Source: Candidatus Zixiibacteriota bacterium | GTDB lineage: Bacteria > Zixibacteria > MSB-5A5 > GN15 > FEB-12 | Assembly (NCBI GenBank): GCA_041742355.1 | Contig: JBGSIV010000139.1 | Coordinates: 511-64,510 of the forward strand | Reading direction: 5' to 3' | DNA: 64,000 bases | In this document: piece after piece, positions 4,928-30,208 of the stretch | How the letters are laid out: each line of letters opens with the position of its first letter | How positions within the stretch are numbered: position 1 is the stretch's first letter | Notes under the pieces: model-generated | What the model was told of the DNA's origin: nothing | Database searches by the model: none | What the model saw: only the letters and a program-made list of their open reading frames with translations | Program-made: the position numbers and the translations under genes

Positions 4928-5010
4928 AGCGCACACTCCGCGTTGTTGGTTGACGGTTCCGTTGATTCCCCTGTAACCACCGGATCCGCCGTTTGCTCCC
5001 GCCGACCGGC

Positions 5011-6213: not shown

Positions 6214-6235
6214 TGCTCCACAACCGGTTAATACC

Positions 6236-6264: not shown

Positions 6265-6291
6265 GATGAAGATTAGGGAAAGAGGAATGTC

Positions 6292-7047: not shown

Positions 7048-7128
7048 TTCGCCCGCGCGGCTCCGCGGGTATCCTCAACACGGGTCGCCCGGATTCCGTA
7101 TTACGTACACATTCTATAAGGAAGCCTC

Positions 7129-7827
7129 ATGTCCACAGTGACTTTCGTATCCGGCGCGAACCGGGGAATCGGATTTGAATTCGCCCGTCAGCTCACTGAC
7201 CGCGGCGGTCAGGTGATCGCCGGATACCGCTCCGCCGAGCGCTCCCGCGAACTGCTCGAAATGGCTGAAGGCCACGAGTGCCTCCACGCTTTCCCAGTCG
7301 ATGTCAACAACCAGCGCCAGTTGCGCAAACTGCACCGCTACATCCGCGACACCTTCGACCGCCTCGACCTGCTCATCAATAATGCCGGCATCAACCCCGG
7401 CGCCGGTGTTCCCCTCGATGAAACCGGGATCGATTCTCTCCGCACCGCCTACGATGTCAACGTTCTCGGCCCCCTCCTTGCCGCCCGCTATCTGCGGCCC
7501 CTCCTGACCGGGTCCGACAACCCCCGCATCGTCAACATCGGCTCCCGCGCCGGCGTTATATCGCTTTCCAAAGGGGACAACGCCCCCTATCGCATCAGCA
7601 AGTGTGCCGTGAACATGCTCACCCGTATCCAGGCCCAGGCATACGAACCCGATGGCATCACCGTCGTCGTCATGACTCCCGGCTGGGTTCGAACTGACAT
7701 GGGGGGAACCGATGCCCACCTCAGCCCCGAGGAATCGGTCAGCGGTATGTTGACCGTAATCGACGGACTCACCAAAGATCACAGCGGGCGGTTCTTCGCC
7801 CACGACGGGCAGGAGATTGCGATCTAA
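7129..7827 (+). CDS. Short-chain dehydrogenase/reductase (SDR)
   Basis: VTFVSGANRGIGFEF is the cofactor-binding motif, NNAG is present, and YRISKCAV fits the YxxxK catalytic motif. Confidence 0.85.
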   Translation: MSTVTFVSGANRGIGFEFARQLTDRGGQVIAGYRSAERSRELLEMAEGHECLHAFPVDVNNQRQLRKLHRYIRDTFDRLDLLINNAGINPGAGVPLDETGIDSLRTAYDVNVLGPLLAARYLRPLLTGSDNPRIVNIGSRAGVISLSKGDNAPYRISKCAVNMLTRIQAQAYEPDGITVVVMTPGWVRTDMGGTDAHLSPEESVSGMLTVIDGLTKDHSGRFFAHDGQEIAI

Positions 7828-7858
7828 GCGTTATCCTCGCGCGTAGACGCCCGATCGC

Positions 7859-14014: not shown

Positions 14015-15460
14015 GACGGGAAAGCGAAGGGACGTTCTGTGCAGGATGGTGTGAAGGCTCACCGTCAGCCTCTCCGGGGAGCCTGGTGGAACCTCCCGGA
14101 TGAAGCGACCGATGGAGCAGGGGAGTTACGCGATTGGGTCGAGGCTGCCGATATCCAGGATCTGAGGCGGGAGGTGTATCGAGGGAAGGTGACAGAAGTG
14201 TATTGAGAGTCGGACGTAAGAGGCGGATGCAGCTGAAAGCATTACTCTCGAACTGCACCTTCGATGGCGCAACTCTTTGCCCGACATACAAAACCCCTTT
14301 CAACTTGGTCGCTGAAGGGGTGCATATTCATAAAAAAGCTCCGTAGTAGAAGCTTTGTTCCAAACTAGGCTATTTGACCCAAATTGGCCCTCCTTGTACC
14401 ATCTTCCGAAAACTTTCCTACAGAAGCCCGTGAATTCCGGCCAACATGCCAGCCTACTGCATTTAAGCATCGCTAAGACAGTGAGTTATGGCAACGGCGG
14501 GGCTGGCCGACATCCGGTCCGAGGGGACATCTCGGTACATTTCAAAGCGCAAATAGGGTTGAGTTGGGGGCAAGTGAGCCTTGATAGGGACGCTGGCAAT
14601 AATACAACAATCAGGCAACTTGGGACGCTATTAGAATCTCTCTTGCGCTGACATGATTCAAATCCTCACAGCGGAAACATCAGTCCATTTTGTGCCGCAT
14701 GCGATTAGGATACATAGATCCACATCCGTCAAGCCCCGCATTTGATCGATTTCTGGATCCCTATCCGTTCGAGGGACAACAGACTACGAAGGCTGATTCT
14801 ATTTGAGAAGGGTTCTTACTTGCTCAGGGCTAACTGCCTCGAGCGTCTCAGGGTTGAATAAGATGTCATCTCGGGTGCAGTAGTACAGCTTCTCCCAGCG
14901 TTCCAATAAAACTCTCCAAGTCTCCTCCTGAATCTTCAAGACCTACTCATCCGCCTCCGTTCCCCGAATTCCTCAAGAAGCTTTCGTCGAGCACTTGCCA
15001 TGGTGATCCAGTGAAGTGCAGTCTGCGCTTCGCGGACCTCGGAGTCAAGAATTGATCCACCCATTCTCTCAAAGATAGGAGGCTTATCCCGACTGATAGA
15101 AGTCTTTGCGCAACTCATATGATTCCATCGCGTCAAGTTTCTCACCATGGATGCCGTCGGCGACTTGCGATTCCTTTCAATGGCCTGAGTGAGCCGTACT
15201 TGTGAACTTCAGTTGTCCAGTCAGGTGCACCTTCGACTCGACGTGATCTAACGGCGCAGAGATTATTCCTGCGACTCCGAAGCCGTGACAGCTCTTGCGG
15301 TTATGGCGCAGCAGCAACTGCCGCGAGATACCAGTTGTGAACAGGGAAAGAATTTCTGAAATTCCCGTGAAAATCACAGGCATCGCGGCCATGTACATGT
15401 GAGTAGACTGCTGGAGATATCGTCCGGCGAAATAAGTTGACCCGATAACGAGGAGATCGC

Positions 15461-17354: not shown

Positions 17355-19325
17355 TTAGTCTCGCTCTTCAAGGATGGCAATGCAGTTGGCAGCTGCTCCA
17401 CCGGCTGTTAAGAAGGCCCCTCCGGCGACCAGGGCACCTTCGTGGACCGTCAGGGCCCTGACTTGTTGAGAAGCTCCTTCCATCCCGGAACCCATGGCCG
17501 ACCAGCGTTCACCATCCCAGAAGGCGATACTGCTAGCGCCCATTCCCCCGGCACGTGTGAACACCCCGCCCGCAACCAAGTAGCCATCGTACTGCGCTAG
17601 CGAATAGACGGGAAGGTCCGTTCCCGAATCAAGAGCCGACCAGTCCATACCATTCCATGCAGCGATGTTATTTGCAGTCACTCCCCCGGCACTGGTAAAG
17701 TATCCTCCCGCAATCAGGTTTCCGCCATACACAGCCAGTGCATTGATGTAGCCGTTTGTCCCCGAGCTAACGGCGGACCAGCTGTAACCATTCCAGGAGG
17801 CGATATTGGAGGCAGGCGTGCCGCCAGCCATTGTGAACTGTCCAGCAACAATTAGGTTTCCGTCATGCACGGTGAGAGCATTGACTTGCCCATTCACCCC
17901 TCCAGCAGTGAGGCCGTACCAGCTGAGAAAATACCACTTGGCAATATTGGCGACGCTTCTTCCACCAGCAGACGTGAATTCTCCACCAGCTATGAGATCA
18001 TCTTGATAACCGGTCAGCGCATGGACCCCGTTGTTCAGTCCCGAACCTAGCGCCGACCAAGTATTGCCATCCCACAAACCGATGTAGTTCGCATAGGTTC
18101 CCCCTATGACGCTAAACCACCCTCCAGCGATCAAGTTGCCATTGTGTAGCGTAAGAGCTTTTACAGTCTCGTTTGGCCGTGAGCCTAACGAGGACCAGTC
18201 TATACCGTTCCATGAAGCGATATAATTGGCGGTGTCTCCACCGTGGCTAACGAAGTATCCGCTTCCGCCTGCGATCAGGTTGCCATCGTACATAATCAGA
18301 GCCCGAACCATCCTGTATACACCCTCAATTCCGGATCCCAGCGGTTCCCACACCATCCTTGGTTGAAGAATCTTGAGCGTTTCCGGGTTACAATCATTCC
18401 CAAGCGCTATGACTACGCCATGGCGCGAAGTTTCCGTGAAATTGTCCTGAGCCGTGACCGTGAAGAAGTCCGGCGTCGTCCCGGATCTCTTGCTGACCTT
18501 CAGCCAGGATGTGTCGCTCGACGCTACAGAGTAGGCAGGGTTGATCACATTTGCCATGGTGATTTGGATCTGCCCACTGGTTCCTCCCATCCCCGGCAAT
18601 CGCACGGAATCAGGACTTATCACCAATGTCGGCTGGGTACCTGAAGGATATTGGGTGACCATGATGGTGTCCGGGCCACCGACTGCTCCTGGAGCGCTCA
18701 CGATGACTATCCCCTGGCGAAGCTCCGAAGTGCTATTCTCGGTCGTCACCTGAATTTGAAAGCTGTCCGGCGCCGCTCCTGATACTTTGCTCAGGGCGAT
18801 CCAACTGTCAGACCCAGCCGGCGTGCTGGCACTCCAATTGAAGCGGCTGCCGCCGTTACTGTTCTGCACCCGTATCGTGCGGTTGAAGCCTCCCGTCGCC
18901 GGGGCCGCCACGCTATCGGGCGTCACACCGAGGGTGGCACCTGGAGCCTGTATGCCGTCATAGGCGCTACGGGCCGACTCTTCTCCCCTCGAACCGACGG
19001 CACAGACTCGATAATAGTAGGTACGGCCCGCCCAGACCTCACCATCGGTGTAGGTGTTACGATCAGCGCTGACGTTCCCGGCTACAACGTCTTGGCCGGT
19101 ATCGGCCTCGCTGCGGTAGATCCGATAACCCTTGATTCCTGCGGCCGAGACTCTGTGCCACGTGACAGCGATACCTGCCGACTTGGTGTCCGCGCTGACA
19201 GCGAACGGGTCGTGGTTCTTAAAGACCTCTGGGTCAAGGGGGTTGTCGCGCTCACCGGGGCAGGCCACCAGCAGCAGGCCAAAGACTACTGCAAGCACGA
19301 AGACCAGAAGGAGAGAGTTTCGCAT
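17355..19325 (-). CDS. Lipoprotein: Fn3-like domain, two BACON-like Ig domains and a 7-bladed propeller (paralog 1, N-terminal type A)
   Basis: The lipobox is LLLVAC-PGERDNPLDP. IAVTWHRV...GYRIYRS...YYYRVCAV looks like Fn3. Seven roughly 47-aa repeats follow the pattern W(N/D)GxxWSxLGSG...LIAGGxFTxAGGxxANxIA. The C-terminus is IAILEERD. Confidence 0.75.
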   Translation of the reverse strand: MRNSLLLVFVLAVVFGLLLVACPGERDNPLDPEVFKNHDPFAVSADTKSAGIAVTWHRVSAAGIKGYRIYRSEADTGQDVVAGNVSADRNTYTDGEVWAGRTYYYRVCAVGSRGEESARSAYDGIQAPGATLGVTPDSVAAPATGGFNRTIRVQNSNGGSRFNWSASTPAGSDSWIALSKVSGAAPDSFQIQVTTENSTSELRQGIVIVSAPGAVGGPDTIMVTQYPSGTQPTLVISPDSVRLPGMGGTSGQIQITMANVINPAYSVASSDTSWLKVSKRSGTTPDFFTVTAQDNFTETSRHGVVIALGNDCNPETLKILQPRMVWEPLGSGIEGVYRMVRALIMYDGNLIAGGSGYFVSHGGDTANYIASWNGIDWSSLGSRPNETVKALTLHNGNLIAGGWFSVIGGTYANYIGLWDGNTWSALGSGLNNGVHALTGYQDDLIAGGEFTSAGGRSVANIAKWYFLSWYGLTAGGVNGQVNALTVHDGNLIVAGQFTMAGGTPASNIASWNGYSWSAVSSGTNGYINALAVYGGNLIAGGYFTSAGGVTANNIAAWNGMDWSALDSGTDLPVYSLAQYDGYLVAGGVFTRAGGMGASSIAFWDGERWSAMGSGMEGASQQVRALTVHEGALVAGGAFLTAGGAAANCIAILEERD

Positions 19326-19328
19326 AGC

Positions 19329-21275
19329 TCAGTCCTGCTCCTTGAGGATGGCGATCCTGTTGGCTGGCGATCCACCGGCCTCCGTAAAGTCTCCCGCAGC
19401 CACCAAGTCGCCGTTGAACACGGTCAGGGCATAAACATAACCGTTCATACCTTGTCCGAGCGTCAACCACTGCGATCCATCCCACCGCGCAATGTTGTAT
19501 GCTGGGACCCCACCTGAAATCACAAATCGCCCACCAACGATTATCTGCTTATTGTACCACTCCAGCGCCTCCACTCTTTCCGTTGTCCCGGATCCAAGAG
19601 GTCGCCATGAAGCCCCGTCCCACACTGCAATGTTATTGGCTACGATACCACCTGCCATTGTGAAATCCCCTCCGGCCACGAGCTCGCCGGTTTCCATAAT
19701 AGAAAGAAGCGACCACACATTCCCATCGATTCCACTTCCGAGAGTGGGCCAACCCGGGTATATGTTTCTGGCAATCCCACTGGCAATTTGACCCCCGATA
19801 ATCAAGTCTGAATTGTAACTTGCAATCGCCTCCACAGCTCCAAGATTGACCCCAATTGCCGACCATGACTCACTTGAGGCATTCCAACGAGCGACGTTCG
19901 TTCCCGATGCAGGAGTACCAAAGGCACCACCCACGATAAGCCCGTATCGGTCTTCACCAACGGCATACCCCGCTCCCGGACTCCATGATTGGTTTCCCAA
20001 TCCACTTCCAAGGGTGCTCCACGCGGTACTATCCCATGCAGCGACATTGAGTCCTGGTGAATTGAACCAGCCCGTGACGATGAGCTTTCCGCCATACACG
20101 TACAGCGCGTGAACCTGTGCTCCAGCATCTGATTGCCTTACCCCTTGAACCAAAGGGGCCCAGTGGGTTCCATCCCAGCGCGCGATTTTGTTAAGGGAAC
20201 CAACGCCCCATTCGTTGACTGGTCCGGTGAAGTAGCCCCCCGCATAGAGCTCACCTTTGTAAACGCATGTGGCCATCACCCGATTGTCTAAACCCTCCCC
20301 CAGTGGCTCCCATACCATCCTCGGCTGGTAGACCTTTAGCGTCTCGGGGGCACAGCCATTGGCAAGTGCGATGACTACACCATGCCGCGAAGTTGCCGTG
20401 AAATTGTCCTGAGCCGTCACCGTGAAGAAGTCCGGCGTCGTTCCGCCACTCTTGCTGACCGTCAGCCAAGAGGATTCGCTTGAGGCAACGCTAAAAGTTG
20501 GACTCGTACCATTCACAATAGTAATCTGAATCTGGTCGCTCGTTCCCCCAAGCCCCGGCAGGCGCACCGAATCCGGGCTGATCACCAACATGGGCTCAGC
20601 ATCCGAGGGGTACTGCGTCACTGCTATTGTATCCGGAGTACCGGCCACTCCCAACGCCGTTACAATGACGCGCCCCGTCCGGGAGGTACTGGAACTGCTG
20701 GTCCCCACTTTTGTCCAGACACTGTCCGGCGCGGTCCCGCTTGTTTTGCTGACCGTCAGCCACCCCGAGTCGCTCGCGATCGTGTAGTTGAACCGGCAAA
20801 TCGTGCTGTCGCTGCTGATGTGCAGCCAGAGGCTGTCCTTGGCCGCCCCCGCCGACCAACTTGACGGACTGGTCGAGAGCCGCGCGCCTGTCACCGTCAC
20901 CGAGTCCGGCTGGCAGGCCTCGGATTCCTTACCCTCGCTGTCGAGCGCCACGATGCGGTACCAGTAGGTTGTATTGGCATAACCTTCCTGATCCAGATAG
21001 CTGGTGACAGTCGTCGGTACCTCTCCGACAGGGATCGCTGCGGAGGCAGCCTGCGTGGAGCGGTAGACCCGGTAGCCGTCGACGCCTTTGACCTTGACGG
21101 CCTGCCACTCGACCAGGACACCTTGGGGGGTGAGATCGGCCTGCATGTGGAAGGGGTCGGGCAGGTCGGCCCCGGGATCAAGGGGGTTGTCGCGCTCTTC
21201 AGGGCAGCCCAGGACCAGCAGCAGCAAACCACAGGCTGCACCAAGCACGAGGATTGGCGTGAAGGTGTTTCGCAT
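19329..21275 (-). CDS. Lipoprotein: Fn3-like, BACON-like and propeller domains (paralog 2, N-terminal type B)
   Basis: The lipobox is LLVLGC-PEERDNPLDP, and the architecture matches paralog 1. The C-terminus is IAILKEQD. Only 3 nt separate it from the next start. Confidence 0.75.
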   Translation of the reverse strand: MRNTFTPILVLGAACGLLLLVLGCPEERDNPLDPGADLPDPFHMQADLTPQGVLVEWQAVKVKGVDGYRVYRSTQAASAAIPVGEVPTTVTSYLDQEGYANTTYWYRIVALDSEGKESEACQPDSVTVTGARLSTSPSSWSAGAAKDSLWLHISSDSTICRFNYTIASDSGWLTVSKTSGTAPDSVWTKVGTSSSSTSRTGRVIVTALGVAGTPDTIAVTQYPSDAEPMLVISPDSVRLPGLGGTSDQIQITIVNGTSPTFSVASSESSWLTVSKSGGTTPDFFTVTAQDNFTATSRHGVVIALANGCAPETLKVYQPRMVWEPLGEGLDNRVMATCVYKGELYAGGYFTGPVNEWGVGSLNKIARWDGTHWAPLVQGVRQSDAGAQVHALYVYGGKLIVTGWFNSPGLNVAAWDSTAWSTLGSGLGNQSWSPGAGYAVGEDRYGLIVGGAFGTPASGTNVARWNASSESWSAIGVNLGAVEAIASYNSDLIIGGQIASGIARNIYPGWPTLGSGIDGNVWSLLSIMETGELVAGGDFTMAGGIVANNIAVWDGASWRPLGSGTTERVEALEWYNKQIIVGGRFVISGGVPAYNIARWDGSQWLTLGQGMNGYVYALTVFNGDLVAAGDFTEAGGSPANRIAILKEQD

Positions 21276-21278
21276 GGC

Positions 21279-23258
21279 TCAGTCCTGCTCTTCAAGTCTG
21301 GCAACGTGATTCACAGAATGGCCGCTCGCAGTAGTGAAACTCCCCCCTACAACAAGATGATGGTCAAAAACGACCATGCAAAGGGGTGACACGGCGGGTA
21401 GGAAACCCGCTCCCATAGACTTCCAAGAGGAACCGTCCCACCGAGCAATACCCTGTGCTGGCACTCCGCCCGCACTACTAAATGGCCCGGCGACTACCAA
21501 CCAACCTTCGAATTCCGCAAGAGCTCTGCCGCCTAAGAACGAATTCAGGCCCGTTCCCACTGTTTTCCATGAACTTCCGTCCCGCCGCGCTATGCGGGCG
21601 CCCTCGTTCGTGAAGCCTCCGGTAGCATAGAGCTCATCGCGATATACTGCAACGGCGGAGACAAATGCGTTGAGTCCGGATCCAAGTTTCTGCCATGACT
21701 GGGTACTTCCGTCCCAAGCAGCTATATGTCCGCCACCGGTCGGTTGTGACACGTAGAATTGACCGCCTGCTATCAATCGATTCTGGAACATTGCCAACGC
21801 ACTAACAAAACCATTCAATTCGAAGCCAAGATCATCCCATGAGGAACCCATCCACAATGCGACGTTCTTGGCGGGTTGTCCGCCTGCTGCTGAAAAGAAG
21901 CCGCCGGCAACACGCCATGTACCCCATGTCAGAGCTCGAACTTCGGTCGCGTAGTCGCCCTCGTTGTCCATTCCAAGGTCCATTGCCCGCCAAGAAGCAC
22001 CGTCCCACGTGGCAATGCTATTCACCAATTGACCTCCAGCAGAGTCAAACTGGCCCCCGGCGTACAGCGAGTATGGATCGGCCGCCAAAGCGTACACCGC
22101 ACCGGTGGATGTTCCGGAGCCAAGCGCTTGCCAAGACGAGCCGTTCCAACGGGCAATGTTATTAACGATTGTTCCGTCGCCCGCTGAAGAGAACTGCCCA
22201 CCTGCAACCAGCTCGCCCTTGTAAACAGTGAGTGCATTCACCGGGCCATTTAGACCGAGGCCAAAGGGAGACCAACCCATCCACGGTTGATGAACTAGTA
22301 ATGTCTCCGGTAGACTGCCATTGGCATTAACCACAATAACTGCGTTTCTCGCGCTGTCATCGAAATTGGCAGAAGTAATGACTGAGTAGCTGCCTGGCGT
22401 GGAACTGGAACTTGAATTGACAGTCAACCACGAGATACTATTATCATCGGCAGTGACTGCGTAGGAGATGCTTCCCCCCGTTCCAATGTTACTAACTGTC
22501 ACGGTCAGAGTGTCACCAAGTCCGGCAGCCCGCCAAGCCGTATCCGATAGGTGTAGTTGGGGCGTCTGGGGAGGAACAGCTGGCTGGGTGACCTTGATGG
22601 TATCAAGTCCATCAGTTGCCCCCGAGGCACTCACGACAACTATCCCCTGACGGAGTTGTGAAGTGCCATTCTCGGTCGTCACCTGAATCTGAAAGCTGTC
22701 CGGCGCTGTCCCCGACGGCTTGCTCAGCTCGATCCAAGCAGCTGAGCCGGCCGGAGTGCTGGCAGTCCAGTTGAAGCGGCTGCCTCCGGTGCCGTTTTGC
22801 ACCCGTACCGTGCGGTTGAAGTCTCCCTCTGCTGGCGCTGCTACGCTGTCAGGGCTTACACTCAGCGTAGCGCCACGAGCCTTTATGCCGCCATAGGCGC
22901 TGCGAACCGACTCCTCTCCCCTCAATCCAACCGCACATACCCTGTAGTAGTAGGTGCGGCCCGCCCAGACCTCACCATCGGTGTACGTGCTCATGTCGGC
23001 GCTGACGTTTCCGGCCACGACATCTTGGCCGGTATCGGCTTCGCTCCTATAGATGCGGTATCCCTTGATTCCGCTTCCAGAGACCTTGTGCCAGGCTACC
23101 GCTATGCCAGCCGACGTCGTATCGACACTGACGGCAAACGGGTCGTGGTCCTTAAAGACCCCCGGATCCAGCGGGTTGTCACGCTCGCCGGGACAGGCCA
23201 GCAGCAGCAGGCCAACCGCTGCAGTGAGCGCGAAGACCGGAAGGAGAGAGTGTCGCAT
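21279..23258 (-). CDS. Lipoprotein: Fn3-like, BACON-like and propeller domains (paralog 3, N-terminal type A)
   Basis: The N-terminal 120 aa are nearly collinear with paralog 1 (GERDNPLDPGVFKDHDPFAVSVDTTSAGIAVAWHKV...). The C-terminus is VARLEEQD. Confidence 0.75.
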   Translation of the reverse strand: MRHSLLPVFALTAAVGLLLLACPGERDNPLDPGVFKDHDPFAVSVDTTSAGIAVAWHKVSGSGIKGYRIYRSEADTGQDVVAGNVSADMSTYTDGEVWAGRTYYYRVCAVGLRGEESVRSAYGGIKARGATLSVSPDSVAAPAEGDFNRTVRVQNGTGGSRFNWTASTPAGSAAWIELSKPSGTAPDSFQIQVTTENGTSQLRQGIVVVSASGATDGLDTIKVTQPAVPPQTPQLHLSDTAWRAAGLGDTLTVTVSNIGTGGSISYAVTADDNSISWLTVNSSSSSTPGSYSVITSANFDDSARNAVIVVNANGSLPETLLVHQPWMGWSPFGLGLNGPVNALTVYKGELVAGGQFSSAGDGTIVNNIARWNGSSWQALGSGTSTGAVYALAADPYSLYAGGQFDSAGGQLVNSIATWDGASWRAMDLGMDNEGDYATEVRALTWGTWRVAGGFFSAAGGQPAKNVALWMGSSWDDLGFELNGFVSALAMFQNRLIAGGQFYVSQPTGGGHIAAWDGSTQSWQKLGSGLNAFVSAVAVYRDELYATGGFTNEGARIARRDGSSWKTVGTGLNSFLGGRALAEFEGWLVVAGPFSSAGGVPAQGIARWDGSSWKSMGAGFLPAVSPLCMVVFDHHLVVGGSFTTASGHSVNHVARLEEQD

Positions 23259-23261
23259 CGG

Positions 23262-25187
23262 TCAGTCCTCCTCCTTGAGGACGGCAATGTTGTTGGCGGG
23301 GACCCCGCCGGCTTGCTCGAAATAGCCCGCCGCGATCAGTTGATTGTTGTATACCTCCAGAGCATAGACTCTGTCGTTCATCCCCGAGCCCAGAGGCGAC
23401 CACTCAACTCCGTCCCAGGAGGCAATCCCAGAGGCGGCTGTCCCTCCAGCCGAATCAAAAAACCCTGCGGCAATCAATCTGCCATCATAGACGGTCAGAG
23501 CTACTACGAGGTTATTCACGCCGGATCCCAAAGGGGACCAACTGGAGCCATTCCATGAGGCAACGTGGTTCGCACTGACCCCACCCGCTGATGTGAACAC
23601 GCCTCCCGCGATCAGATTGCCGTCGTACACTGCCAAGGCATAGACGTCCTCATACGCTCCCCCGGTTCCTGATCCGAGCGATGACCAAGTAGAACCATCC
23701 CATGCGGCGATACAACGATAGGGGGTCCAGAAGTTCCCTCCCGCAATAAGCTTGCCGTTATAGGTAGTCAGAGCGATAACACGACCATAAATGCCACTCA
23801 AGCCTGAACCCACTCGGGACCAGCCCGAGCTACTCCAAAAGGCGAGATAGTTGATGGCCGCATCCCCTACACTGTCGAATCCCCCCCCCACGTAGAGTGT
23901 GCCTTGATATCGGGCCAGAGCTTCCACCCACCCGTTCATTCCCGATGCAACCGTATCCCAGTAGGAACCGGTCCAATACGCGACGCCATCGACAAAGCCC
24001 GCGTACAAGAGCTCGAAAACGTTCAGCATCGTTGCCGGCCCGACTCCGTTGCCCGAACCGAAGGGCGACCATGTTTGCCCATCCCAAGAAGCCATGTGAT
24101 CGACGGCGATCCCGCCTGCCGTTGTGAACTGGCCCGCAGCGATGAGCTTTCCATCGCACGTTTCCAGGCAACGGACCAAGTAGTTGGTCCCAGACCCCAG
24201 AGGCTCCCACACCATTCTCGCCTGATGGACTTTCAGTGACTCCGGCTGCGGGATTCCGGACGCATAGACTCGCACCCAAGCATCCCGAGGACTCTCTCCG
24301 AAATTGTCCCTGGCGCTTACGGTAATAGTGTCGGGAATCGAACCACTGATCTTGCTCGGTGTAACCCAGGAATCACTGACGCTTATTGTGTATGACGAGA
24401 ACGAGCCTCCGGTAACACTGATGACAATCGCCTCGCTGGTGCCACCCAACCCCGGCAACCGCACAGAATAGGGGTTGATCACCAACGCCGCCCCTGGGTC
24501 GCTTGCGCTCTGCGTTACGACGACGGTATCAGGCGAATCGGCCACGTTGGGTGCATTCACCATGATGAGCGCGCTGTGCTCGGAGCCGGTGCTGTTGGCA
24601 CCAACTCTTATCAACACGCTATCCGGCGCCGTTCCGCCGGATTTACTTACGCTTAGCCAGCCAGCCGTACTGCTCACCGAGTAGTTGAACCGGCAGATCG
24701 TGCTGTCGCTGCCGATGTGAAGCTGGAAGCTGGCTGAATCCGCCTCCGGAGCCCACAGCAGGGGCGTCGCATGCAGTCGCGCCCCGGCAATGGTCACGCT
24801 GTCCGGCAGGCTCGGACTCGACACGGCACCATTGGCATCGACTGCAGCCACCCGGTACCAGTAGGTCGTGGTGTTGAAGCCGGTTTGATCGAGGTAGCTG
24901 GTGACGGTGGAGGACACATGTCCAACCACCGTCCCGGCTGTGGCTTCTTGAGAGGAGCGGTAGATTCGATAGCCCTTGACGCCGCTCACCTTAACACCCT
25001 GCCACTCCAACTGCACTCCCTCATCACTTAGTGAAACTTCAATCTGGAAGGGATCAGGCAAACTGCTGTTAGGATCCAATGGGTTGTCGCGGTCGCCGGG
25101 GCAGCCCAAGAGGAATACGACCGCTGCACAGGCAGCCGGCACCATTAGGATCCTGGATATAGCTCGCATAAGCGGATCCTTCTCCAA
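23262..25187 (-). CDS. Lipoprotein: Fn3-like, BACON-like and propeller domains (paralog 4, N-terminal type B)
   Basis: The lipobox is FLLGC-PGDRDNPLDP, and the N-terminal region is collinear with paralog 2. The C-terminus is IAVLKEED. The start may instead be the MRAISR codon at 25169. Confidence 0.75.
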   Translation of the reverse strand: MEKDPLMRAISRILMVPAACAAVVFLLGCPGDRDNPLDPNSSLPDPFQIEVSLSDEGVQLEWQGVKVSGVKGYRIYRSSQEATAGTVVGHVSSTVTSYLDQTGFNTTTYWYRVAAVDANGAVSSPSLPDSVTIAGARLHATPLLWAPEADSASFQLHIGSDSTICRFNYSVSSTAGWLSVSKSGGTAPDSVLIRVGANSTGSEHSALIMVNAPNVADSPDTVVVTQSASDPGAALVINPYSVRLPGLGGTSEAIVISVTGGSFSSYTISVSDSWVTPSKISGSIPDTITVSARDNFGESPRDAWVRVYASGIPQPESLKVHQARMVWEPLGSGTNYLVRCLETCDGKLIAAGQFTTAGGIAVDHMASWDGQTWSPFGSGNGVGPATMLNVFELLYAGFVDGVAYWTGSYWDTVASGMNGWVEALARYQGTLYVGGGFDSVGDAAINYLAFWSSSGWSRVGSGLSGIYGRVIALTTYNGKLIAGGNFWTPYRCIAAWDGSTWSSLGSGTGGAYEDVYALAVYDGNLIAGGVFTSAGGVSANHVASWNGSSWSPLGSGVNNLVVALTVYDGRLIAAGFFDSAGGTAASGIASWDGVEWSPLGSGMNDRVYALEVYNNQLIAAGYFEQAGGVPANNIAVLKEED

Positions 25188-25203: not shown

Positions 25204-26937
25204 TCATCTCAAGTTATTTCTAAGTAGTGCCACTCTCCCGGTGGACAAGCTGTAAGAGCCAATCACCGCGAGGTCCACATCTCCATCGCCGTCATAGTCC
25301 AGCCGCGCCATTTTCACAGGTCGACTGGGAACAGGAAAATAGACTGGAGTCGGCGGCATTCCGGCTTCCGAAAACAGGAATATGGCGACAGATTGCTCCG
25401 TTAGCGTCGCCAGATCCTCGAACCCGTTCTCGTCGAAGTCGCTACTCTCAATGATTGTTGCACCGGGGTAGCCGGCAACACTCCGGCATGATTGGCTCAA
25501 TTGACCCTGACCGTTGCTGACAAGAATTGCCAGGGTGCCGGAAGAGCAACTCACCGCCAGATCCGCTTGCCCTGTGGCAGAGTTGACCTTAACGCATAGA
25601 TCAGTCGGGGGTTCGCCGCATGGACTGTAGTAGGTGGGAGCAGCGAATTGGGCAGGTCCCGAACTCAAGATGACCGCAATAGAAGATGCGGAGATACATG
25701 CGAAATCATCGTACGCATCGCCGTTCAGGCGACATTTGACAACTCGGTCGCCGATATCAGGAACAGCAAGCGATGCGACAGTATCGAGCGTCCATTGTCC
25801 ATCCAATCCCCATCGACTCTTCCAGAACACCATCCTGTACTCACAGCCAGCAACGAGATCAGTCTTTCCGTCATTATTCAGGTCAGACATTACTACAGCT
25901 GAGGCATATCCTTGAGAGCTCCTGGACCAGTCAGGGCCAGCCCTCTGGATGAACCCACCTCCCCCATTATTTAGGTGCAAACGAAATGTATGAGTCAAGA
26001 CCACAGCGGCTGCGATGTCTATCTTCCCGTCATTGTTGATGTCACCTACCGCTGTTGGCGCTATCCCGGACATACCAGTGCATTCAGCTCCCAAGATATT
26101 CCAATTCCAGTAGGTACCGTCGGTTGGGGATCCAACGATGATCTCGTCATCGCCATCACCATCGAGGTCCGCGCAGAAAACTTCCACCTTGAGGTACGGG
26201 TCTTGGTACAGCTGTTCGTAGCCGTACAAGTCTCTCACGCCTGAGGTCACCGGCACGACGATTGCAGTGTCGGCCCCGACGAAGACTAGTTCCGCACTCA
26301 GGGCATCCGATCCAATCTCAGTTGTATTCATATCCACCGCTACCGACATGCTGTTTCCCACACCCGAATCCGGGTGGACGTTCAGCCAGGAGCCGTTGAC
26401 CACAGACACCTGCCACGTCAGTGTCCCTCCTCCAAGGTTTTTCACCAGAAGCGTCTCTGGGGAAGGCAACAGCCCACCACGGAATGCCTCGAAGTGCAGC
26501 GAGTCAGGCTGAACCGACAGCCGAGGTTCCCCTATCCCCAGATTAGTTACAACCGAACTGCGAACACTCTCCTTGTTGGCTCCTCCCAGAGCCGTTACCG
26601 CATAGTAGTAGGTGTTCCCCGGTTCAGCGGTTTGATCCAAGTAGCCATGATCAGTCCCGGGTAGAGTCACTAAAGGAGTCAAGTTCGTCTCAAGTACTCC
26701 CCGGTATAGCCGGTAGCCGGTGACTCCCGGGTTGCCGATGGATTGCCACTCCAGTAACCAGCCAGCACTTTGCGGCATGATTGTCAGCTTAAATGGATCC
26801 TCAGACACAACATTGGACGGATCCAAAGGGTTATCGGGATCAACGGGACAACCAAGTATACCAAGCGCGAGAGCCAGCCCCGCAATAGAAACACCCCACA
26901 GTGCGATCGTCCCTATCACAGCGCGAAGAAATCCCAT
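25204..26937 (-). CDS. Lipoprotein with an Fn3-like domain, an Ig-like domain and FG-GAP/VCBS-type (integrin-alpha-like) repeats
   Basis: It begins with ILGC-PVDPDNPLDP. The repeats include DLDGDGDDEIIVG, DINNDGKIDIAAA, DLNNDGKTDLVAG and DYDGDGDVDLAVIG. Confidence 0.7.
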   Translation of the reverse strand: MGFLRAVIGTIALWGVSIAGLALALGILGCPVDPDNPLDPSNVVSEDPFKLTIMPQSAGWLLEWQSIGNPGVTGYRLYRGVLETNLTPLVTLPGTDHGYLDQTAEPGNTYYYAVTALGGANKESVRSSVVTNLGIGEPRLSVQPDSLHFEAFRGGLLPSPETLLVKNLGGGTLTWQVSVVNGSWLNVHPDSGVGNSMSVAVDMNTTEIGSDALSAELVFVGADTAIVVPVTSGVRDLYGYEQLYQDPYLKVEVFCADLDGDGDDEIIVGSPTDGTYWNWNILGAECTGMSGIAPTAVGDINNDGKIDIAAAVVLTHTFRLHLNNGGGGFIQRAGPDWSRSSQGYASAVVMSDLNNDGKTDLVAGCEYRMVFWKSRWGLDGQWTLDTVASLAVPDIGDRVVKCRLNGDAYDDFACISASSIAVILSSGPAQFAAPTYYSPCGEPPTDLCVKVNSATGQADLAVSCSSGTLAILVSNGQGQLSQSCRSVAGYPGATIIESSDFDENGFEDLATLTEQSVAIFLFSEAGMPPTPVYFPVPSRPVKMARLDYDGDGDVDLAVIGSYSLSTGRVALLRNNLR

Positions 26938-26961: not shown

Positions 26962-27783
26962 TCAAATCCCGCCAAACCACAGCGTTGCTGTCAGACCACG
27001 ACCATCGGTTGTCAAACCAATCTTGGGAGCTTTGGCTTTCTCACGATATCCATCACAGCCGAAATCCGGCTCGTGCGGCTTAGTGGCCAAGAAATAGACC
27101 TCAGTCACAAAGAGTGCTCCTGCGGCTCCAATCAGGATGTTCCGCAGTTGGACCTTGGTTGTATAGTCATCCCAGGCAGAGCTGATATCAGCCGGAGCTA
27201 CCGAGGCGCGGTACTCATCATGTGCGTCACCGGCTTGCCGATTAACCACCAGCGCGCCGACTATAGCGGCGGCTCCTGCCCCGGCGGCGACCATCCTGTA
27301 TACTCGATTCCTCTTAGCATCTCGCAGGAACAACTGACATGCACGTATTCGACGCTCGTCTTCATAATAAGCCCTCGCGCGCAGGGAGTCTGTTGCTGCT
27401 CTGAAGGTAGAGTCGACGATTGGGTCTCCAGATACCTCGGGTTTGAAGGAGGGGTTTTCATTCAATGCCATCAGGTACTGCTCCAGTCCTGCCTTACACT
27501 TGTCTACAGCCTCCTGATGCATAGAGATATACACGTACGCCAACCACCCATGGCATCTCGAGCGGGAGAAGCTAGACAATGTGTCACTCTGGAGGAATTC
27601 CTTGAGAATACGTTCTGCGCACGGATAATTCGTTGCGCGGATATAGTCTTCGGCTTTCTCGATGGAAGCCTTTTCGTAGACGCACGAATCATTCTGTGCC
27701 AGCACACCCGCCGCACTAAACAGAATGCAGGCAATAATGACGAGAGCGCTTGATGGCAAGTCACGAAGAAGCTGGTGTTGCAT
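26962..27783 (-). CDS. Hypothetical membrane protein (N-terminal signal or anchor, helical TPR-like region, two predicted transmembrane helices)
   Basis: 273 aa. The hydrophobic segments are ALVIIACILFSAAGVLA, VYRMVAAGAGAAAIVGALVV and ILIGAAGALFVTEVYFLA. It sits in the operon between the CHAT and FG-GAP genes. Confidence 0.5.
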   Translation of the reverse strand: MQHQLLRDLPSSALVIIACILFSAAGVLAQNDSCVYEKASIEKAEDYIRATNYPCAERILKEFLQSDTLSSFSRSRCHGWLAYVYISMHQEAVDKCKAGLEQYLMALNENPSFKPEVSGDPIVDSTFRAATDSLRARAYYEDERRIRACQLFLRDAKRNRVYRMVAAGAGAAAIVGALVVNRQAGDAHDEYRASVAPADISSAWDDYTTKVQLRNILIGAAGALFVTEVYFLATKPHEPDFGCDGYREKAKAPKIGLTTDGRGLTATLWFGGI

Positions 27784-27817
27784 TCTAATACCCTGCTCTC
27801 TAATGGTTGGGGAGGCA

Positions 27818-30208
27818 CTATTTTATCAACATAGTAACCTGCCTGTAATCCCTCAGCTCACCGTTCAAGTCAAGCTCGACCTTATTGCCCTGAAATGATA
27901 TCCGCCGGTCGGGCCCATATGGGAAGAGTATGATTGAATCCACATCAGAAGACGCACTCGGCGTATCGGGCCTAAGGAACTCCAAATGCCAAGTTCCTCT
28001 GCACAGGTTAAGGACAATATTGGGACCCGGAGGCGCCATAGGACGGGGAAAACCATTCGCTTTGAGCTTCAGCGACTTAAGTCCGTTGCCTCCTATCTGG
28101 ACTCTTACCTCTTCGCACCCTTTATATATTTCTTCCAGACTTACAGGCAACGGATCGTTGCTCTCGACATCATAGCGAAAGGAGTAAATAGGAAAATTCG
28201 GATTCTCAATCCGTATCTCATGTTGCCCTTGGGAAACACTGACCTCGGTACCAACATCCCAATACTTGTCATCGATAGACAGGCGCGAACTTTCTTTCGG
28301 CGTAATCTCCACCATAAAGGTGAACATCGGCAAGATGGACACGGGGGAGAGCCGCTGGCTCTCGGCGGTTGGGTCAGGGATTGCTGGAACCAAGGAAGAT
28401 GTTGTGCAGGACAACAGTCCTGAGGGAGATGATTCGAATTGTCCAAGGTACGACTTGATTCCAAACGTGTATCCCGTATTCGGTCTTAATTCCCCCACCG
28501 TGTAAGAGCTTCTGCTGACATCGACCGTGTCGACGCGGCAGACGGTCCCGGCGCAACTACCCGTGATGATAACCCCAGACTCTCCGTTCTGCTTGAACTC
28601 CCAGGCCAACGTGATGCTCGACGGAGTCGACGATATTGCCGTCAGAGACGTCGGGGTTGTAAGTTCTTCCGTTTTCGCATTGCCCTGGCCGGGTTCCGAT
28701 ACCCACCGTCCTGATACGGCCTGAATTGAATAGCGGTATTCAGTGCCAGGTGCCAATCCGGTATCTTGAAAAACGGTGGTATTGCCGGGAAGCGAGGCGG
28801 TCCGGTGAGAATCATCGGAACGCCGAGTTAGTAAGTACTTGTCGACGTGCAGGCTTGCTTCCGAGAGTGGGGAATCTGACCAATCAACAAAGATATCGGT
28901 GTGCGAGGGACTAAGTGTGACCTGGGGCGCCGGGGGTGCGAACAGAGGGTTAAGCAGCCGCATGGTGTAATCCGAGAACAGCACGCTTGTACCTAGTCCA
29001 AGCGCAATCACGGCCAGGAAACCGATCATGACTCGAATGGCCGCCTTGGGTACACCCCTTAATGCTCTCCTCCACCAAGGTGTTCGTATTTTGAAGAGTC
29101 TTCCATCCCTTGACCGCATGTATAGTACAGGTGTACCCCATTCAAGAAGAAGATCTTGTTCCTGGGCTAAGGCCTTTCGAGCGTGCACTGTGGCGAGATC
29201 GACCGGTTCACCTTTGGCGATCCTACCGTAGAACTTCTGAGTCAGCAAGCCAGCAGCCGACACTGAAATGGCATTGTTCATTCCAAGTACTGCCGGTATA
29301 CCTTGAGCTACCAGAGCTTGGGCCACAGAAATCGCAGTCGAACCCGCCATTGCCCCTTTACAGGCCGCGAGAAAAACGAACTTCACCGTGGGATGATCGC
29401 CTACTGTGCGTGCAAACCTGTTCGCCGTTACAGCGACCGAACGATGGAGAGAGTCCTCGAGGCAAAGGTAGGTTTCCCCTACCCGTTGGTCTATATCCCC
29501 GTGGCCGACAAAATGAACTACGTGGTACTCTCGTTCACCAAGTTTCTCTTCGAGCGATTCAATCGATGGGTGGTCAAGCCAATCGATTGCAACCTGCCGT
29601 CTTTCGATGTGCGGTTCCAGCGCACCGGCAATAGCTCTCCACTCGGCCCTTGCATCAATCGGAGCAAGATCGTCGGGGTGCGCCGTCACGACCAGCACAT
29701 TCAGAGCCTTCTTGACCGCCACGGCGACAATTGGGAATGGAGACGGAAGAAACCGAACGAACGGGGTCCGAGGCGAGAGGGCCAGATGGCCGAAGATTCG
29801 ATGATGCAGGAACTCCCAAGGCAACTGCTCGAACTCTCCTGCGTTATCGAATGATATGTACAAACGTACAAAAGTGCCACCCTTGCGAGCATCATCACTC
29901 GCTTGTAAGAACTTCGCGAGACTGTAGTCATCTGCAAGGAGTGAGTGCAGTAACCGTTCACCGATCCGCTCAGGAGAGAGTGTCTCACCAACAACCGAGC
30001 TTTCTTCTAGTGAGGTCGTTGCACTCAGGACTCTGGTGGCCGATACCCTGCGGCTAGTTTCAAATGCACGCGACTCCTCTGCAGACAACGGTGGATTAAA
30101 CGGATGTTCTGTTTGGCCATACTCCGAGTCCGTAGATACGACAAAACCATCGATCGACCTTCTCAAGGTTATCTTGAACGGAATGTATTTCTCTTCCCGC
30201 CCTGCCAT
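27818..30208 (-). CDS. CHAT-domain (caspase-like) protein with one transmembrane helix, two Fn3 domains and a C-terminal beta-rich domain
   Basis: 796 aa. YHVVHFVGHGD (catalytic His context) and VKFVFLAACKGAMAG (catalytic Cys context) mark the CHAT domain. The transmembrane helix is AIRVMIGFLAVIALGLGTSVLF. The Fn3-like segments are VTLSPSHTDIFVDWS...TEYRYSIQAV and LTAISSTPSSITLAWEF...NTGYTFGIKSY. Confidence 0.8.
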   Translation of the reverse strand: MAGREEKYIPFKITLRRSIDGFVVSTDSEYGQTEHPFNPPLSAEESRAFETSRRVSATRVLSATTSLEESSVVGETLSPERIGERLLHSLLADDYSLAKFLQASDDARKGGTFVRLYISFDNAGEFEQLPWEFLHHRIFGHLALSPRTPFVRFLPSPFPIVAVAVKKALNVLVVTAHPDDLAPIDARAEWRAIAGALEPHIERRQVAIDWLDHPSIESLEEKLGEREYHVVHFVGHGDIDQRVGETYLCLEDSLHRSVAVTANRFARTVGDHPTVKFVFLAACKGAMAGSTAISVAQALVAQGIPAVLGMNNAISVSAAGLLTQKFYGRIAKGEPVDLATVHARKALAQEQDLLLEWGTPVLYMRSRDGRLFKIRTPWWRRALRGVPKAAIRVMIGFLAVIALGLGTSVLFSDYTMRLLNPLFAPPAPQVTLSPSHTDIFVDWSDSPLSEASLHVDKYLLTRRSDDSHRTASLPGNTTVFQDTGLAPGTEYRYSIQAVSGRWVSEPGQGNAKTEELTTPTSLTAISSTPSSITLAWEFKQNGESGVIITGSCAGTVCRVDTVDVSRSSYTVGELRPNTGYTFGIKSYLGQFESSPSGLLSCTTSSLVPAIPDPTAESQRLSPVSILPMFTFMVEITPKESSRLSIDDKYWDVGTEVSVSQGQHEIRIENPNFPIYSFRYDVESNDPLPVSLEEIYKGCEEVRVQIGGNGLKSLKLKANGFPRPMAPPGPNIVLNLCRGTWHLEFLRPDTPSASSDVDSIILFPYGPDRRISFQGNKVELDLNGELRDYRQVTMLIK

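What the first reader, a model, noticed from the sequence alone, without database searches (positions are those of the whole stretch)
17355..25187. Four tandem lipoprotein paralogs in an A-B-A-B mosaic with 3-nt junctions
In genomic coordinate order the paralogs are 1 to 4. Paralogs 1 and 3 share one N-terminal Fn3 type, and paralogs 2 and 4 share another. The second BACON-like domain of paralog 1, however, is nearly identical to that of paralog 2 (protein LVISPDSVRLPG.GGTS.QIQIT...TTPDFFTVTAQDNFT.TSRHGVVIAL). By eye, the DNA at 18400-18520 and 20340-20470 is about 85-90% identical. This implies duplication of a two-gene unit followed by gene conversion. All three junctions have the form CAT-NNN-TCA (19323-19331, 21273-21281, 23256-23264). 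All four proteins end in a conserved tail, I/V-A-x-L-(E/K)-E-x-D. In paralogs 2 and 4 the tail codons (ctc aag gag ...) also form an AAGGAG Shine-Dalgarno sequence for the next gene. The last gene in the array keeps the tail although no gene follows it, so the tail is probably constrained at the protein level as well.
Basis: seen in the sequence. Interest (0 to 1): 0.6.

Follow-up and report, generated by a model that had tools for sequence, protein, structure and literature searches.

The report
Mosaic tandem lipoprotein paralogs, Zixibacteria island
Four neighbouring genes in a Zixibacteria genome encode related surface-type lipoproteins, and one of them is a genuine but ancient patchwork of two others, which is an ordinary way for tandem gene families to evolve, seen here in an uncharacterised family.

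Summary
Four same-strand ORFs (17355-19325, 19329-21275, 21279-23258, 23262-25169) encode lipobox + Fn3 + BACON + BACON_2 + seven-blade beta-propeller proteins. They are joined by three TGA-NNN-ATG junctions and end in I/V-A-x-L-(E/K)-E-x-D.

The mosaic is real. In the first ~225 residues P1 groups with P3 (80% aa, 78% nt) and P2 with P4. In the second BACON domain P1 groups with P2, then P4, with P3 outside. AU tests with outgroup homologues reject a shared topology (p ~3e-5 each way).

The interpretation needs trimming:
- The A-B-A-B pattern covers only the N-terminal third; the propellers show no pairing.
- The shared tracts are old (dS ~1.0-1.6; ~0.5 in a ~140-nt core), so this is not recent homogenisation.
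- Which part of P1 was imported cannot be resolved.
- The two-gene-unit duplication is compatible with the data but unproven.
- Breakpoints fall at domain linkers.
- The tail is the third strand of the closing propeller blade.
- The better-placed Shine-Dalgarno is (G)AGGA, 7 nt from the ATG, not AAGGAG at 12 nt.
- Assembly chimerism is unlikely: the longest shared exact words are 23-29 nt. Reads could not be checked.

The array belongs to a seven-gene operon in a ~40-kb low-GC island next to tRNA-Asn.

The parts
17355..19325 (-). P1, 656 aa. It is the last gene of the operon and the recombinant member. Layout: lipobox (LLVAC), Fn3, BACON, BACON_2, seven-blade propeller, tail IAILEERD, stop TAA.
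18648..19325 (-). A-type N-terminal module of P1 (signal peptide, Fn3, BACON1; residues 1 to about 226). It groups with P3 (22581-23258).
   Evidence: 78% nt and ~80% aa identity, pN 0.10, pS 0.56. The clade has 100/100 support. AU rejects P1+P2 here.
18310..18690 (-). B-type tract of P1 (BACON2 plus linker; residues about 213-339). It groups with P2 (20280-20650) and then with P4.
   Evidence: Breakpoints, mapped to window coordinates. pN is 0.15. Tree ((P1,P2),P4) has 97-99 support. AU rejects P1+P3 with p = 3e-5.
18396..18525 (-). Core of the P1/P2 tract, with reduced synonymous divergence. It is the youngest exchange. Its partner in P2 is 20358-20487.
   Evidence: 86% nt identity. pS is 0.36 and dS about 0.49. 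Codon identity at same-residue sites is 26/36, against about 0.40 for the other pairs.
19329..21275 (-). P2, 648 aa, B-type N-terminus, tail IAILKEQD, stop TGA.
21279..23258 (-). P3, 659 aa, A-type N-terminus. Its BACON2 is divergent and falls outside the P1/P2/P4 clade. Tail VARLEEQD, stop TGA.
23262..25169 (-). P4, 635 aa counted from the ATG at 25169 (the TTG at 25187 is less likely). B-type N-terminus, tail IAVLKEED, stop TGA.
19323..19331 (-). P2-to-P1 junction: TGA-GCT-ATG. AGGA lies 7 nt and AAGGAG 12 nt before the ATG.
21273..21281 (-). P3-to-P2 junction: TGA-GCC-ATG. AGGA lies 7 nt before the ATG and there is no AAGGAG.
23256..23264 (-). P4-to-P3 junction: TGA-CCG-ATG. GGAGGA lies 7 nt before the ATG.
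25204..26937 (-). P5, 577 aa. It is a fifth lipoprotein with the same head (lipobox, DNPLDP, Fn3, BACON-like domain) but an FG-GAP/VCBS propeller.
26962..27783 (-). A 273-aa membrane protein that stays next to these lipoproteins in other organisms.
   Evidence: 30% identity, E = 4e-40, to its counterpart in L197. Found in 17 of 285 Zixibacteria genomes. Same position in G020.
27818..30208 (-). First gene of the operon. Layout: CHAT protease domain, a predicted membrane-spanning helix (read by eye, no predictor run), two Fn3 domains, and a C-terminal domain of about 170 aa. A Ser/Thr kinase (L197) and a short membrane protein (G020) carry the same C-terminal domain.

Best explanation
The region is an old tandem family of four lipoproteins. 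Each has a lipid anchor, an Fn3 domain, two BACON domains and a seven-blade beta-propeller. The genes are translated one after another from a compact operon.

The family diversified partly by homologous recombination between paralogs, with breakpoints at the linkers between domains. P1 carries an A-type Fn3 + BACON1 module, the type found in P3. It carries a B-type BACON2, the type found in P2 and P4. A later short conversion tract of about 140 nt between the adjacent genes P1 and P2 lies in the BACON2 core.

Purifying selection (dN/dS about 0.1) has kept the exchanged modules similar in protein, while synonymous sites have largely randomised. The propellers carry no trace of pairing.

The conserved C-terminal tail is strand C of the last blade. 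It pairs with the N-terminal VWEPLG strand to close the propeller. Its last codons also supply a purine-rich ribosome-binding site 7 nt before the next start codon.

Shown: the gene structure, the domains, the discordant phylogenies and the age of the tracts. Inferred: the conversion mechanism, the strand-level closure of the propeller, translational coupling, and any ligand-binding role at the cell surface.
For: Anatomy.

Discordant trees.
- N-terminal quartet: delta lnL 99 for ((P1,P3),(P2,P4)).
- With six outgroup homologues the N-terminal clades are (P1,P3) at 100/100 and (P2,P4) at 99. The BACON2 tree is ((P1,P2) 99, P4) at 97-99, with P3 outside.
- AU rejects P1+P3 in BACON2 (delta lnL 41, p = 3e-5). 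AU rejects P1+P2 in the N-terminus (delta lnL 130, p = 3e-5).

Breakpoints. Maximum chi-square places them at aa columns ~215-235 and ~324-345, with 0 of 200 permutations as extreme. These positions are the BACON1/BACON2 and BACON2/propeller linkers.

Age and selection.
- P1-P3 N-terminus: pN 0.10, pS 0.56.
- P1-P2 BACON2: pN 0.15, pS 0.66.
- BACON2 core: pS 0.36.

Propeller and tail.
- Each protein has seven repeats, and the last is cut off after ...NIAxL.
- AF2 gives pLDDT 84 for P1 and pLDDT 91.5 with pTM 0.91 for the propeller alone. The strand count is 1 + 6x4 + 3.

Ribosome binding. The 16S rRNA ends in CCUCCU, and GGAG-to-start spacing peaks at 5-9 nt.

The arrangement is conserved elsewhere. 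A metagenome contig (L013) has ...NIAMLVEQE-TAG-ACT-ATG before a 38%-identical homologue.
Against: - The four-sequence quartet test on BACON2 alone is only marginal (AU p = 0.07 for protein, unresolved for nucleotides). The strong rejection depends on six distant outgroups and alignments of about 95 residues.
- Outside the ~140-nt core, synonymous sites of the P1/P2 tract are saturated. Conversion there is inferred from protein trees only.
- Which part of P1 is resident cannot be decided.
- No expression or localisation data exist.
Confidence: 0.8

Rival explanations
1. An ancestral A-B gene pair was duplicated once as a unit, giving A-B-A-B. A gene conversion then copied BACON2 from P2 into P1.
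For: N-terminal types alternate and each pair is strongly monophyletic. P1's BACON2 nests inside the B lineage next to P2, and P2's branch is close to zero length. For the whole propeller, ((P1,P3),(P2,P4)) has the best likelihood, though not significantly (bp-RELL 0.60).
Against: - No propeller pairing is detectable.
- N-terminal depths differ: dN is 0.11 for P1-P3 and 0.39 for P2-P4.
- External homologues sit between the A and B clades rather than outside both. The A/B split may therefore predate this array.
Confidence: 0.35
2. Opposite polarity. P1 began as a tandem duplicate of its neighbour P2 (B-type). Its first ~225 codons were later replaced from a P3-like A-type gene. The BACON2 core was converted again more recently.
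For: P1 and P2 are adjacent. Outside the core, P1-P2 BACON2 synonymous sites (pS 0.85-0.91 in windows at columns 221-260) look at least as old as the P1-P3 N-terminal ones (pS 0.46-0.75). This fits BACON2 being the resident part.
Against: The pS difference is within sampling error: 0.56 +/- 0.04 against 0.66 +/- 0.055 (errors are my estimate). P1's propeller is no closer to P2's than to the others (42% against 40-45% identity).
Confidence: 0.35
3. There was no recombination. One tree applies to the whole gene, and the pattern comes from unequal rates, with P3's BACON2 diverging fast while those of P1 and P2 stayed frozen.
For: With only the four paralogs, the alternative topologies for BACON2 are not rejected at 5% (AU p = 0.07 for protein; nucleotides unresolved).
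Against: With outgroups, the N-terminal topology is rejected on BACON2 (delta lnL 50, p = 4e-5). Synonymous divergence is lowered specifically for P1-P2 in the core (pS 0.36 against 0.74 or more; codon identity 26/36), and protein-level constraint cannot produce that.
Confidence: 0.05
4. Assembly artefact. The MAG contig is a short-read chimera that joined pieces of different paralogs or strains.
For: The genome is a 310-contig MAG. Reads could not be inspected.
Against: - The shared tracts are 78-86% identical, not about 100%.
- The longest exact words shared between paralogs are 23 nt (P1/P2) and 29 nt (P1/P3). I judge these too short to mislead the large k-mers that assemblers normally use.
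- All four frames are intact, with conserved domain boundaries and junctions.
- A distant homologue on an independent contig shows the same junction form.
Confidence: 0.03

Closest known systems
Tandem or multicopy surface-protein families that evolve by gene conversion (for example Helicobacter pylori babA/babB and sabA/sabB, Treponema tpr genes, Borrelia vls cassettes); recalled from general knowledge, not tested here
   Same: Paralogous genes for envelope proteins exchange internal segments. The resulting mosaic genes have segment trees that disagree.
   Different: Those systems show recent or ongoing exchange with near-identical tracts, and often silent donor cassettes, and they produce antigenic variation. 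Here the tracts are old (dS ~0.5-1.6). The longest shared exact word is 29 nt. All four copies are full-length genes in one operon. The Pfam scans of the window's genes returned no recombinase or reverse-transcriptase family.
BACON-domain lipoproteins of Bacteroidota (Pfam PF13004 and PF19190)
   Same: An N-terminal lipid anchor is followed by Ig-like spacer domains (BACON) that carry a functional C-terminal module. The Pfam scores are above the curated cut-offs.
   Different: The host is a Zixibacteria MAG. There are no Sus-like, glycoside-hydrolase or TonB neighbours. The C-terminal module is a seven-blade DUF5122/Rax2-type propeller. The genomic partners are a membrane-anchored CHAT protease and a 273-aa membrane protein.
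Periplasmic sensor propellers of Bacteroides hybrid two-component systems (BT4663 and BT4673; PDB 4a2l, 3va6)
   Same: Seven-blade extracytoplasmic propellers with fold-level similarity (TM about 0.63-0.65 normalised to the query).
   Different: Sequence identity is 8-10%. WD40 propellers score equally well, so the match is generic. No kinase or receiver domain is fused, and these proteins are lipid-anchored.
Metagenomic homologues of the same family: P0004 (L013), P0050 (L197), P0062, P0136 (L198)
   Same: The same architecture of lipobox, Fn3, BACON domains and seven-blade propeller. L013 has a paralog directly upstream with the tail ...IAMLVEQE and a 3-nt junction. P0050 has the tail IAVLREQD and follows a homologue of the 273-aa protein and a membrane protein that shares the C-terminal domain.
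   Different: Identity is 31-41%. They have one or two lipoprotein genes rather than five. P0004 has three BACON domains. The cytoplasmic head of the partner protein is a Ser/Thr kinase (L197) or is absent (G020) instead of CHAT.

Membership tests
Bacterial lipoprotein (SPase II substrate) | An N-terminal basic region, a hydrophobic helix and a lipobox L-[ASVL]-[AG]-C | tested here: met
   Read directly from the translations: LLVAC, LVLGC, LLLAC and FLLGC at residues ~18-24, each after MR.... AF2 gives a helix at residues 6-20. Lipidation itself cannot be tested with these tools.
BACON / BACON_2 (PF13004, PF19190) | Score above Pfam's gathering cut-off | tested here: met
   All four proteins score 41.7-54.0 bits on PF13004 and 37.9-48.7 bits on PF19190, against a cut-off of 25 for each.
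Fibronectin type III (PF00041) | Score above Pfam's cut-off, or an Fn3 fold | tested here: inconclusive
   Only P1 is listed, at 23.4 bits against a cut-off of 25. The AF2 model has a beta-sandwich at residues 43-126. The whole-protein Foldseek search returns multi-Fn3 chains at E ~1e-8, but with low TM scores.
DUF5122 / Rax2-type beta-propeller (PF17164, PF12768) | Repeat score above the cut-off and a closed propeller | tested here: met
   PF17164 scores 28.3-33.9 bits against a cut-off of 27 in all four proteins. PF12768 scores above 28.8 in P1-P3 and 26.9 in P4. A family HMM finds seven repeats in each. The AF2 propeller has pLDDT 91.5 and pTM 0.91.
Gene conversion between paralogs | Adjacent segments support significantly different phylogenies | tested here: met
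   AU tests. Maximum chi-square scan.
Gene conversion between paralogs | Synonymous divergence inside the tract is lower than in the flanks | tested here: inconclusive
   This holds only in the core at codons 270-315 (pS 0.36). The rest of the BACON2 tract (pS 0.85-0.91) and the N-terminal tract (pS 0.56 against 0.58-0.70 for other pairs) are near saturation.
Programmed antigenic- or phase-variation locus (vls/tprK-like, DGR, invertible) | Near-identical donor cassettes or repeats, or an associated recombinase or reverse transcriptase | tested here: not met
   Longest shared exact word is 29 nt and tract identity is at most 88%. The Pfam scans of the window's genes returned no reverse-transcriptase or invertase family. 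The small ORFs were not searched.

The most novel reading that the evidence does not exclude
The four paralogs, together with P5, may be the diversified receptor arm of an undescribed envelope module that recurs in Zixibacteria. The module has three parts. The first is a membrane protein with a shared ~170-aa outer C-terminal domain and an interchangeable cytoplasmic head (CHAT protease, Ser/Thr kinase, or none). The second is a 273-aa membrane protein. The third is one to five Fn3-headed propeller lipoproteins. On this reading, alternating A and B heads would mark obligate receptor pairs, and domain-boundary recombination would reshuffle docking modules (Fn3/BACON) against ligand-binding propellers, giving an outside-in sensing or conflict system.
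Probability: 0.15. Interest if true: 0.7.

Novelty: new member of a known kind. Interest (0 to 1): 0.35.

Why it matters
Mosaic evolution of tandem surface-protein genes is well known, so the mechanism adds little.

Its value is descriptive. It documents a rare, uncharacterised lipoprotein family: only about five full-architecture homologues appeared among 1.8 billion representative proteins. In this family recombination respects domain boundaries.

It also sets out a ready-made contrast between modules under strong purifying selection (Fn3 and BACON, dN/dS about 0.1) and propellers that have diverged to the level of the family consensus.

The surrounding conserved three-part module, with its swappable cytoplasmic effector, is the more interesting lead.

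Tried and rejected
- **P1-P4 similarity patch.** A patch at alignment columns 556-585 (70-80% aa) looked like a second conversion. I rejected it. Synonymous sites there are saturated (pS 0.84-0.86), and both blades are simply close to the repeat consensus.
- **Blade-by-blade orthology.** Diagonal and off-diagonal identities are nearly equal (44-50% against 40-47%), so the propellers cannot be used to date or pair the genes.
- **dN/dS for the propellers.** It cannot be estimated, because dS is saturated or undefined. The idea that the propeller faces are diversifying remains untested.
- **Orthologous arrays.** None appeared among 40 relatives, the GTDB representative genomes or a metagenome scan. 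All three gave only propeller-only or Fn3-only matches.
- **NCBIfam and PADLOC.** Neither gave a hit for the lipoproteins.
- **Promoter and terminator scans.** Neither found more sites than the shuffled controls.
- **Stop-codon read-through.** The 3-nt spacers keep all four ORFs in one frame, so read-through would make a fusion protein. I considered this and rejected it. Each gene has its own signal peptide and lipobox, the stop codons differ (TGA, TAA, and TAG in L013), and the rest of the genome reads normally under table 11.


Full report
**What is there**

Between 17355 and 25187 the minus strand carries four back-to-back ORFs:
- P1, 17355-19325, 656 aa
- P2, 19329-21275, 648 aa
- P3, 21279-23258, 659 aa
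- P4, 23262-25169, 635 aa

I place the P4 start at the ATG at 25169. It aligns with the MR... starts of the other three and has AAGGA 7 nt upstream. The TTG at 25187 is less likely.

Transcription runs P4, P3, P2, P1. The three junctions read TGA-CCG-ATG, TGA-GCC-ATG and TGA-GCT-ATG, and P1 ends in TAA.

Each protein has the following parts:
- A lipobox: LLVAC, LVLGC, LLLAC or FLLGC.
- A conserved C-P-x-(E/D)-R-D-N-P-L-D-P motif directly after the lipobox cysteine.
- An Fn3-like domain, then BACON (PF13004) and BACON_2 (PF19190), both above Pfam's cut-offs.
- A propeller that matches Rax2 and DUF5122.

A family HMM finds seven repeats in every paralog. AlphaFold2 gives a confident model: P1 has mean pLDDT 84, and the propeller alone has pLDDT 91.5 and pTM 0.91. 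Foldseek returns only generic seven-blade propellers, such as WD40 proteins and the Bacteroides hybrid two-component sensor domains, at TM about 0.6 and 8-17% identity. The fold is clear but suggests no specific ligand.

**Checking the mosaic**

Sliding-window identities show the pattern:
- P1/P3 are 71-93% (aa) and 69-87% (nt) identical over alignment columns 1-210.
- P2/P4 are 46-67% (aa) identical over the same stretch.
- At about column 215-235 the pattern switches. P1/P2 become 61-90% identical up to about column 325, while P1/P3 fall to 20-46%.
Positions 18400-18520 are 86.0% identical to P2. The partner is 20362-20482, not 20340-20470.

Maximum chi-square scans put P1's breakpoints at aa columns ~215-235 and ~324-345. 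None of 200 permutations reached the observed value. In window coordinates these are about 18630-18690 and 18310-18370. They are the BACON1/BACON2 linker and the BACON2/propeller linker.

**Is it recombination or rate variation?**

With only the four paralogs, the N-terminal part supports ((P1,P3),(P2,P4)) by 99 lnL units. BACON2 prefers ((P1,P2),(P3,P4)) only marginally, with AU p = 0.07 for the alternatives.

I therefore looked for outgroups. An exhaustive profile search of 1.84 billion representative proteins found few proteins with the same architecture:
- P0004, P0050, P0062 and P0136;
- an FG-GAP version, P0109;
- several fragments.

With these added, the trees are clear. In the N-terminal tree, (P1,P3) has 100/100 support and (P2,P4) has 99. 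In the BACON2 tree, (P1,P2) has 99, P4 joins them at 97-99, and P3 lies outside a clade that also contains P0050.

Constrained searches and AU tests give the following:
- BACON2 rejects P1+P3 (delta lnL 41, p = 3e-5).
- BACON2 rejects the N-terminal topology (delta lnL 50, p = 4e-5).
- The N-terminus rejects P1+P2 (delta lnL 130, p = 3e-5).

P1 is therefore a true recombinant of an A-type and a B-type gene.

**How old are the exchanges?**

Nei-Gojobori estimates:

| Pair and region | pN | pS | dS | dN/dS |
|---|---|---|---|---|
| P1-P3, N-terminus | 0.10 | 0.56 | ~1.0 | 0.10 |
| P2-P4, N-terminus | 0.30 | 0.66 | ~1.6 | 0.25 |
| P1-P2, BACON2 | 0.15 | 0.66 | ~1.6 | 0.10 |
| P1-P2, BACON2 core (codons 270-315) | 0.08 | 0.36 | ~0.49 | 0.17 |

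In the core, codons are identical at 26 of 36 same-residue sites, against about 40% for the other pairs.

Only a ~140-nt core (18396-18525 in P1, 20358-20487 in P2) keeps a nucleotide-level sign of a younger exchange. These tracts are not "nearly identical" DNA, and the exchange is not recent.

The same numbers argue against assembly chimerism. The longest exact words shared are 23 nt (P1/P2) and 29 nt (P1/P3), and the shared tracts differ at 14-22% of positions.

**The propellers do not follow A-B-A-B**

- Over the C-terminal half all six pairs are 37-45% identical.
- AU tests cannot choose a topology.
- Blade-by-blade matrices show almost no positional signal: diagonal 44-50% against off-diagonal 40-47%.
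- Each array propeller scores higher against double-propeller secreted proteins on other contigs (C284, C274, C266; 193-275 bits) than against its neighbours (136-223 bits). Those proteins offer more blades to align to, which may inflate their scores.

A single duplication of a two-gene unit is therefore compatible with the N-terminal pattern but is not demonstrated. Because the propeller carries no signal, I cannot tell which part of P1 is resident. P1 may be an A-type gene that received BACON2 from P2. It may equally be a P2 duplicate whose head was replaced from P3. I give the two polarities similar weight.

Propeller dN/dS cannot be estimated because dS is saturated, so diversifying selection remains untested.

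**Tail and junctions**

The tails are IAILEERD, IAILKEQD, VARLEEQD and IAVLKEED.

The repeat consensus is V-x-A-L-x-V-Y-x-G-x-L-I-A-G-G-x-F-x-x-A-G-G-x-x-A-x-N-I-A-x-W-D-G-x-x-W-x-x-L-G-x-G. The seventh repeat stops at ...N-I-A-x-L. The sequence just before repeat 1, M-V-W-E-P-L-G-S-G, supplies the missing W-x-x-L-G strand.

In the AF2 propeller the strands count as one N-terminal strand, six groups of four, and a final group of three ending with residues 328-334, which is the tail. I infer a "3+1" closure in which the tail is strand C of blade 7. That explains the protein-level conservation, including in P1, which has no downstream gene. It also explains P0050 (tail IAVLREQD), whose next gene starts 92 nt away.

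On the Shine-Dalgarno idea:
- The genome's 16S rRNA ends in ...CACCUCCUUUC.
- GGAG-to-start spacing peaks at 5-9 nt.
- AAGGAG in P2 and P4 lies 12 nt from the ATG.
- (G)AGGA, made by the last two codons, lies 7 nt away at all three junctions. This includes the P3-to-P2 junction, which lacks AAGGAG.

The dual coding/ribosome-binding idea is reasonable, but it probably rests on the E/Q-D codons.

The same junction form (…VEQE-TAG-ACT-ATG) precedes the 38%-identical homologue P0004 on an unrelated metagenome contig. The one-gene-plus-3-nt unit is therefore old.

**Context**

- The organism is a Zixibacteria MAG: its HPr kinase is 70-92% identical to those of Zixibacteria MAGs. The genome has 4.37 Mb in 310 contigs and is 60.4% GC.
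- The array sits in a 53-58% GC stretch from about 14 kb to 54.6 kb that ends at tRNA-Asn.
- A 14-nt direct repeat, ATAAAAAAGCTCCG, occurs at 14330 and at 54600, where it overlaps the 3' end of the tRNA. By my estimate about 0.006 such matches are expected by chance.
- The stretch also holds terminase-like HTH proteins, a ParB-methylase, a GmrSD/HNH nuclease, a Ser/Thr kinase and an Hsp70-like gene.
- No full-architecture homologue was found in 40 relatives, including three genomes of the same genus. This fits horizontal acquisition.
- The four genes close a seven-gene, same-strand cluster with gaps of 3 to 34 nt. The order is: a CHAT protein with a predicted membrane helix, two Fn3 domains and a C-terminal domain (27818-30208); a 273-aa membrane protein (26962-27783); P5, which has Fn3, a BACON-like domain and an FG-GAP propeller (25204-26937); then P4 to P1.
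- The 273-aa protein and the C-terminal domain recur next to such lipoproteins elsewhere. One case is contig L197: a kinase with the C-terminal domain (31% identity over 174 aa, E = 4e-21), a 279-aa protein (E = 4e-40), P0050, and then an Fn3-propeller lipoprotein. Another is a same-family genome, G020: a short membrane protein with the C-terminal domain, a 285-aa protein, and a single FG-GAP lipoprotein.
- Lipoprotein number thus varies from one to five around a conserved core.

**Verdict**

This is an old tandem paralog family with a statistically robust recombinant member and breakpoints at domain boundaries. It is a new member of a known kind of evolutionary pattern. Its function is unknown. 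By inference from the architecture, these are lipid-anchored, ligand-binding envelope proteins that work with the membrane-anchored CHAT protein.

Noticed in passing
window 14330-14343 and 54600-54613; tRNA-Asn at 54608-54681 (-): A 14-nt direct repeat, ATAAAAAAGCTCCG, brackets the low-GC (53-58% against a genome value of 60.4%) stretch of about 40 kb. The right-hand copy overlaps the 3' end of tRNA-Asn, so these look like att-type island borders. None of the island genes I scanned against Pfam matched an integrase family.
   Followed up: partly
window 26962-30208; L197:798-3337; L212 (G020:C47) 4988-8286: A conserved module: a membrane protein with a shared ~170-aa C-terminal domain and an interchangeable cytoplasmic head (CHAT here, Ser/Thr kinase in L197, none in G020), then a ~275-aa membrane protein, then one to five Fn3-headed propeller lipoproteins. 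The ~275-aa protein was found in 17 of 285 Zixibacteria genomes at E <= 1e-8.
   Followed up: partly
G000 contigs C274 (8033-16469), C284, C266, C107, C121, C275: At least eight secreted proteins of 796-1390 aa (three of them adjacent on C274) carry 5-13 copies of the same propeller repeat. All end in a shared C-terminal motif, ...DLTYLVxxLFxGGPxPxxCP, which looks dockerin-like or like a sorting signal. The same motif ends two large proteins in G020 (L212: 3-1988 and 2195-4717).
   Followed up: no
window 17355-25169: Every junction is exactly 3 nt, so all four ORFs lie in one reading frame. Read-through of the TGA stops would make a fused polyprotein. I judged this incidental, because each gene has its own lipoprotein signal peptide.
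   Followed up: partly
window residues +1 to +11 after the lipobox Cys of P1-P5; also L013, L197, L198, L212: A conserved C-P-x-(E/D)-R-D-N-P-L-D-P motif follows the lipidated cysteine. It recurs in lipoprotein heads from Poribacteria, Latescibacterota, Eisenbacteria and Krumholzibacteriota MAGs. It might be a lipoprotein sorting or surface-export signal.
   Followed up: no
L013:2552-6085: The gene after the P0004 homologue encodes a 1177-aa protein with no Pfam hit on record. The contig that carries P0062 has a Tlde1_dom protein just upstream. Neither was analysed.
   Followed up: no
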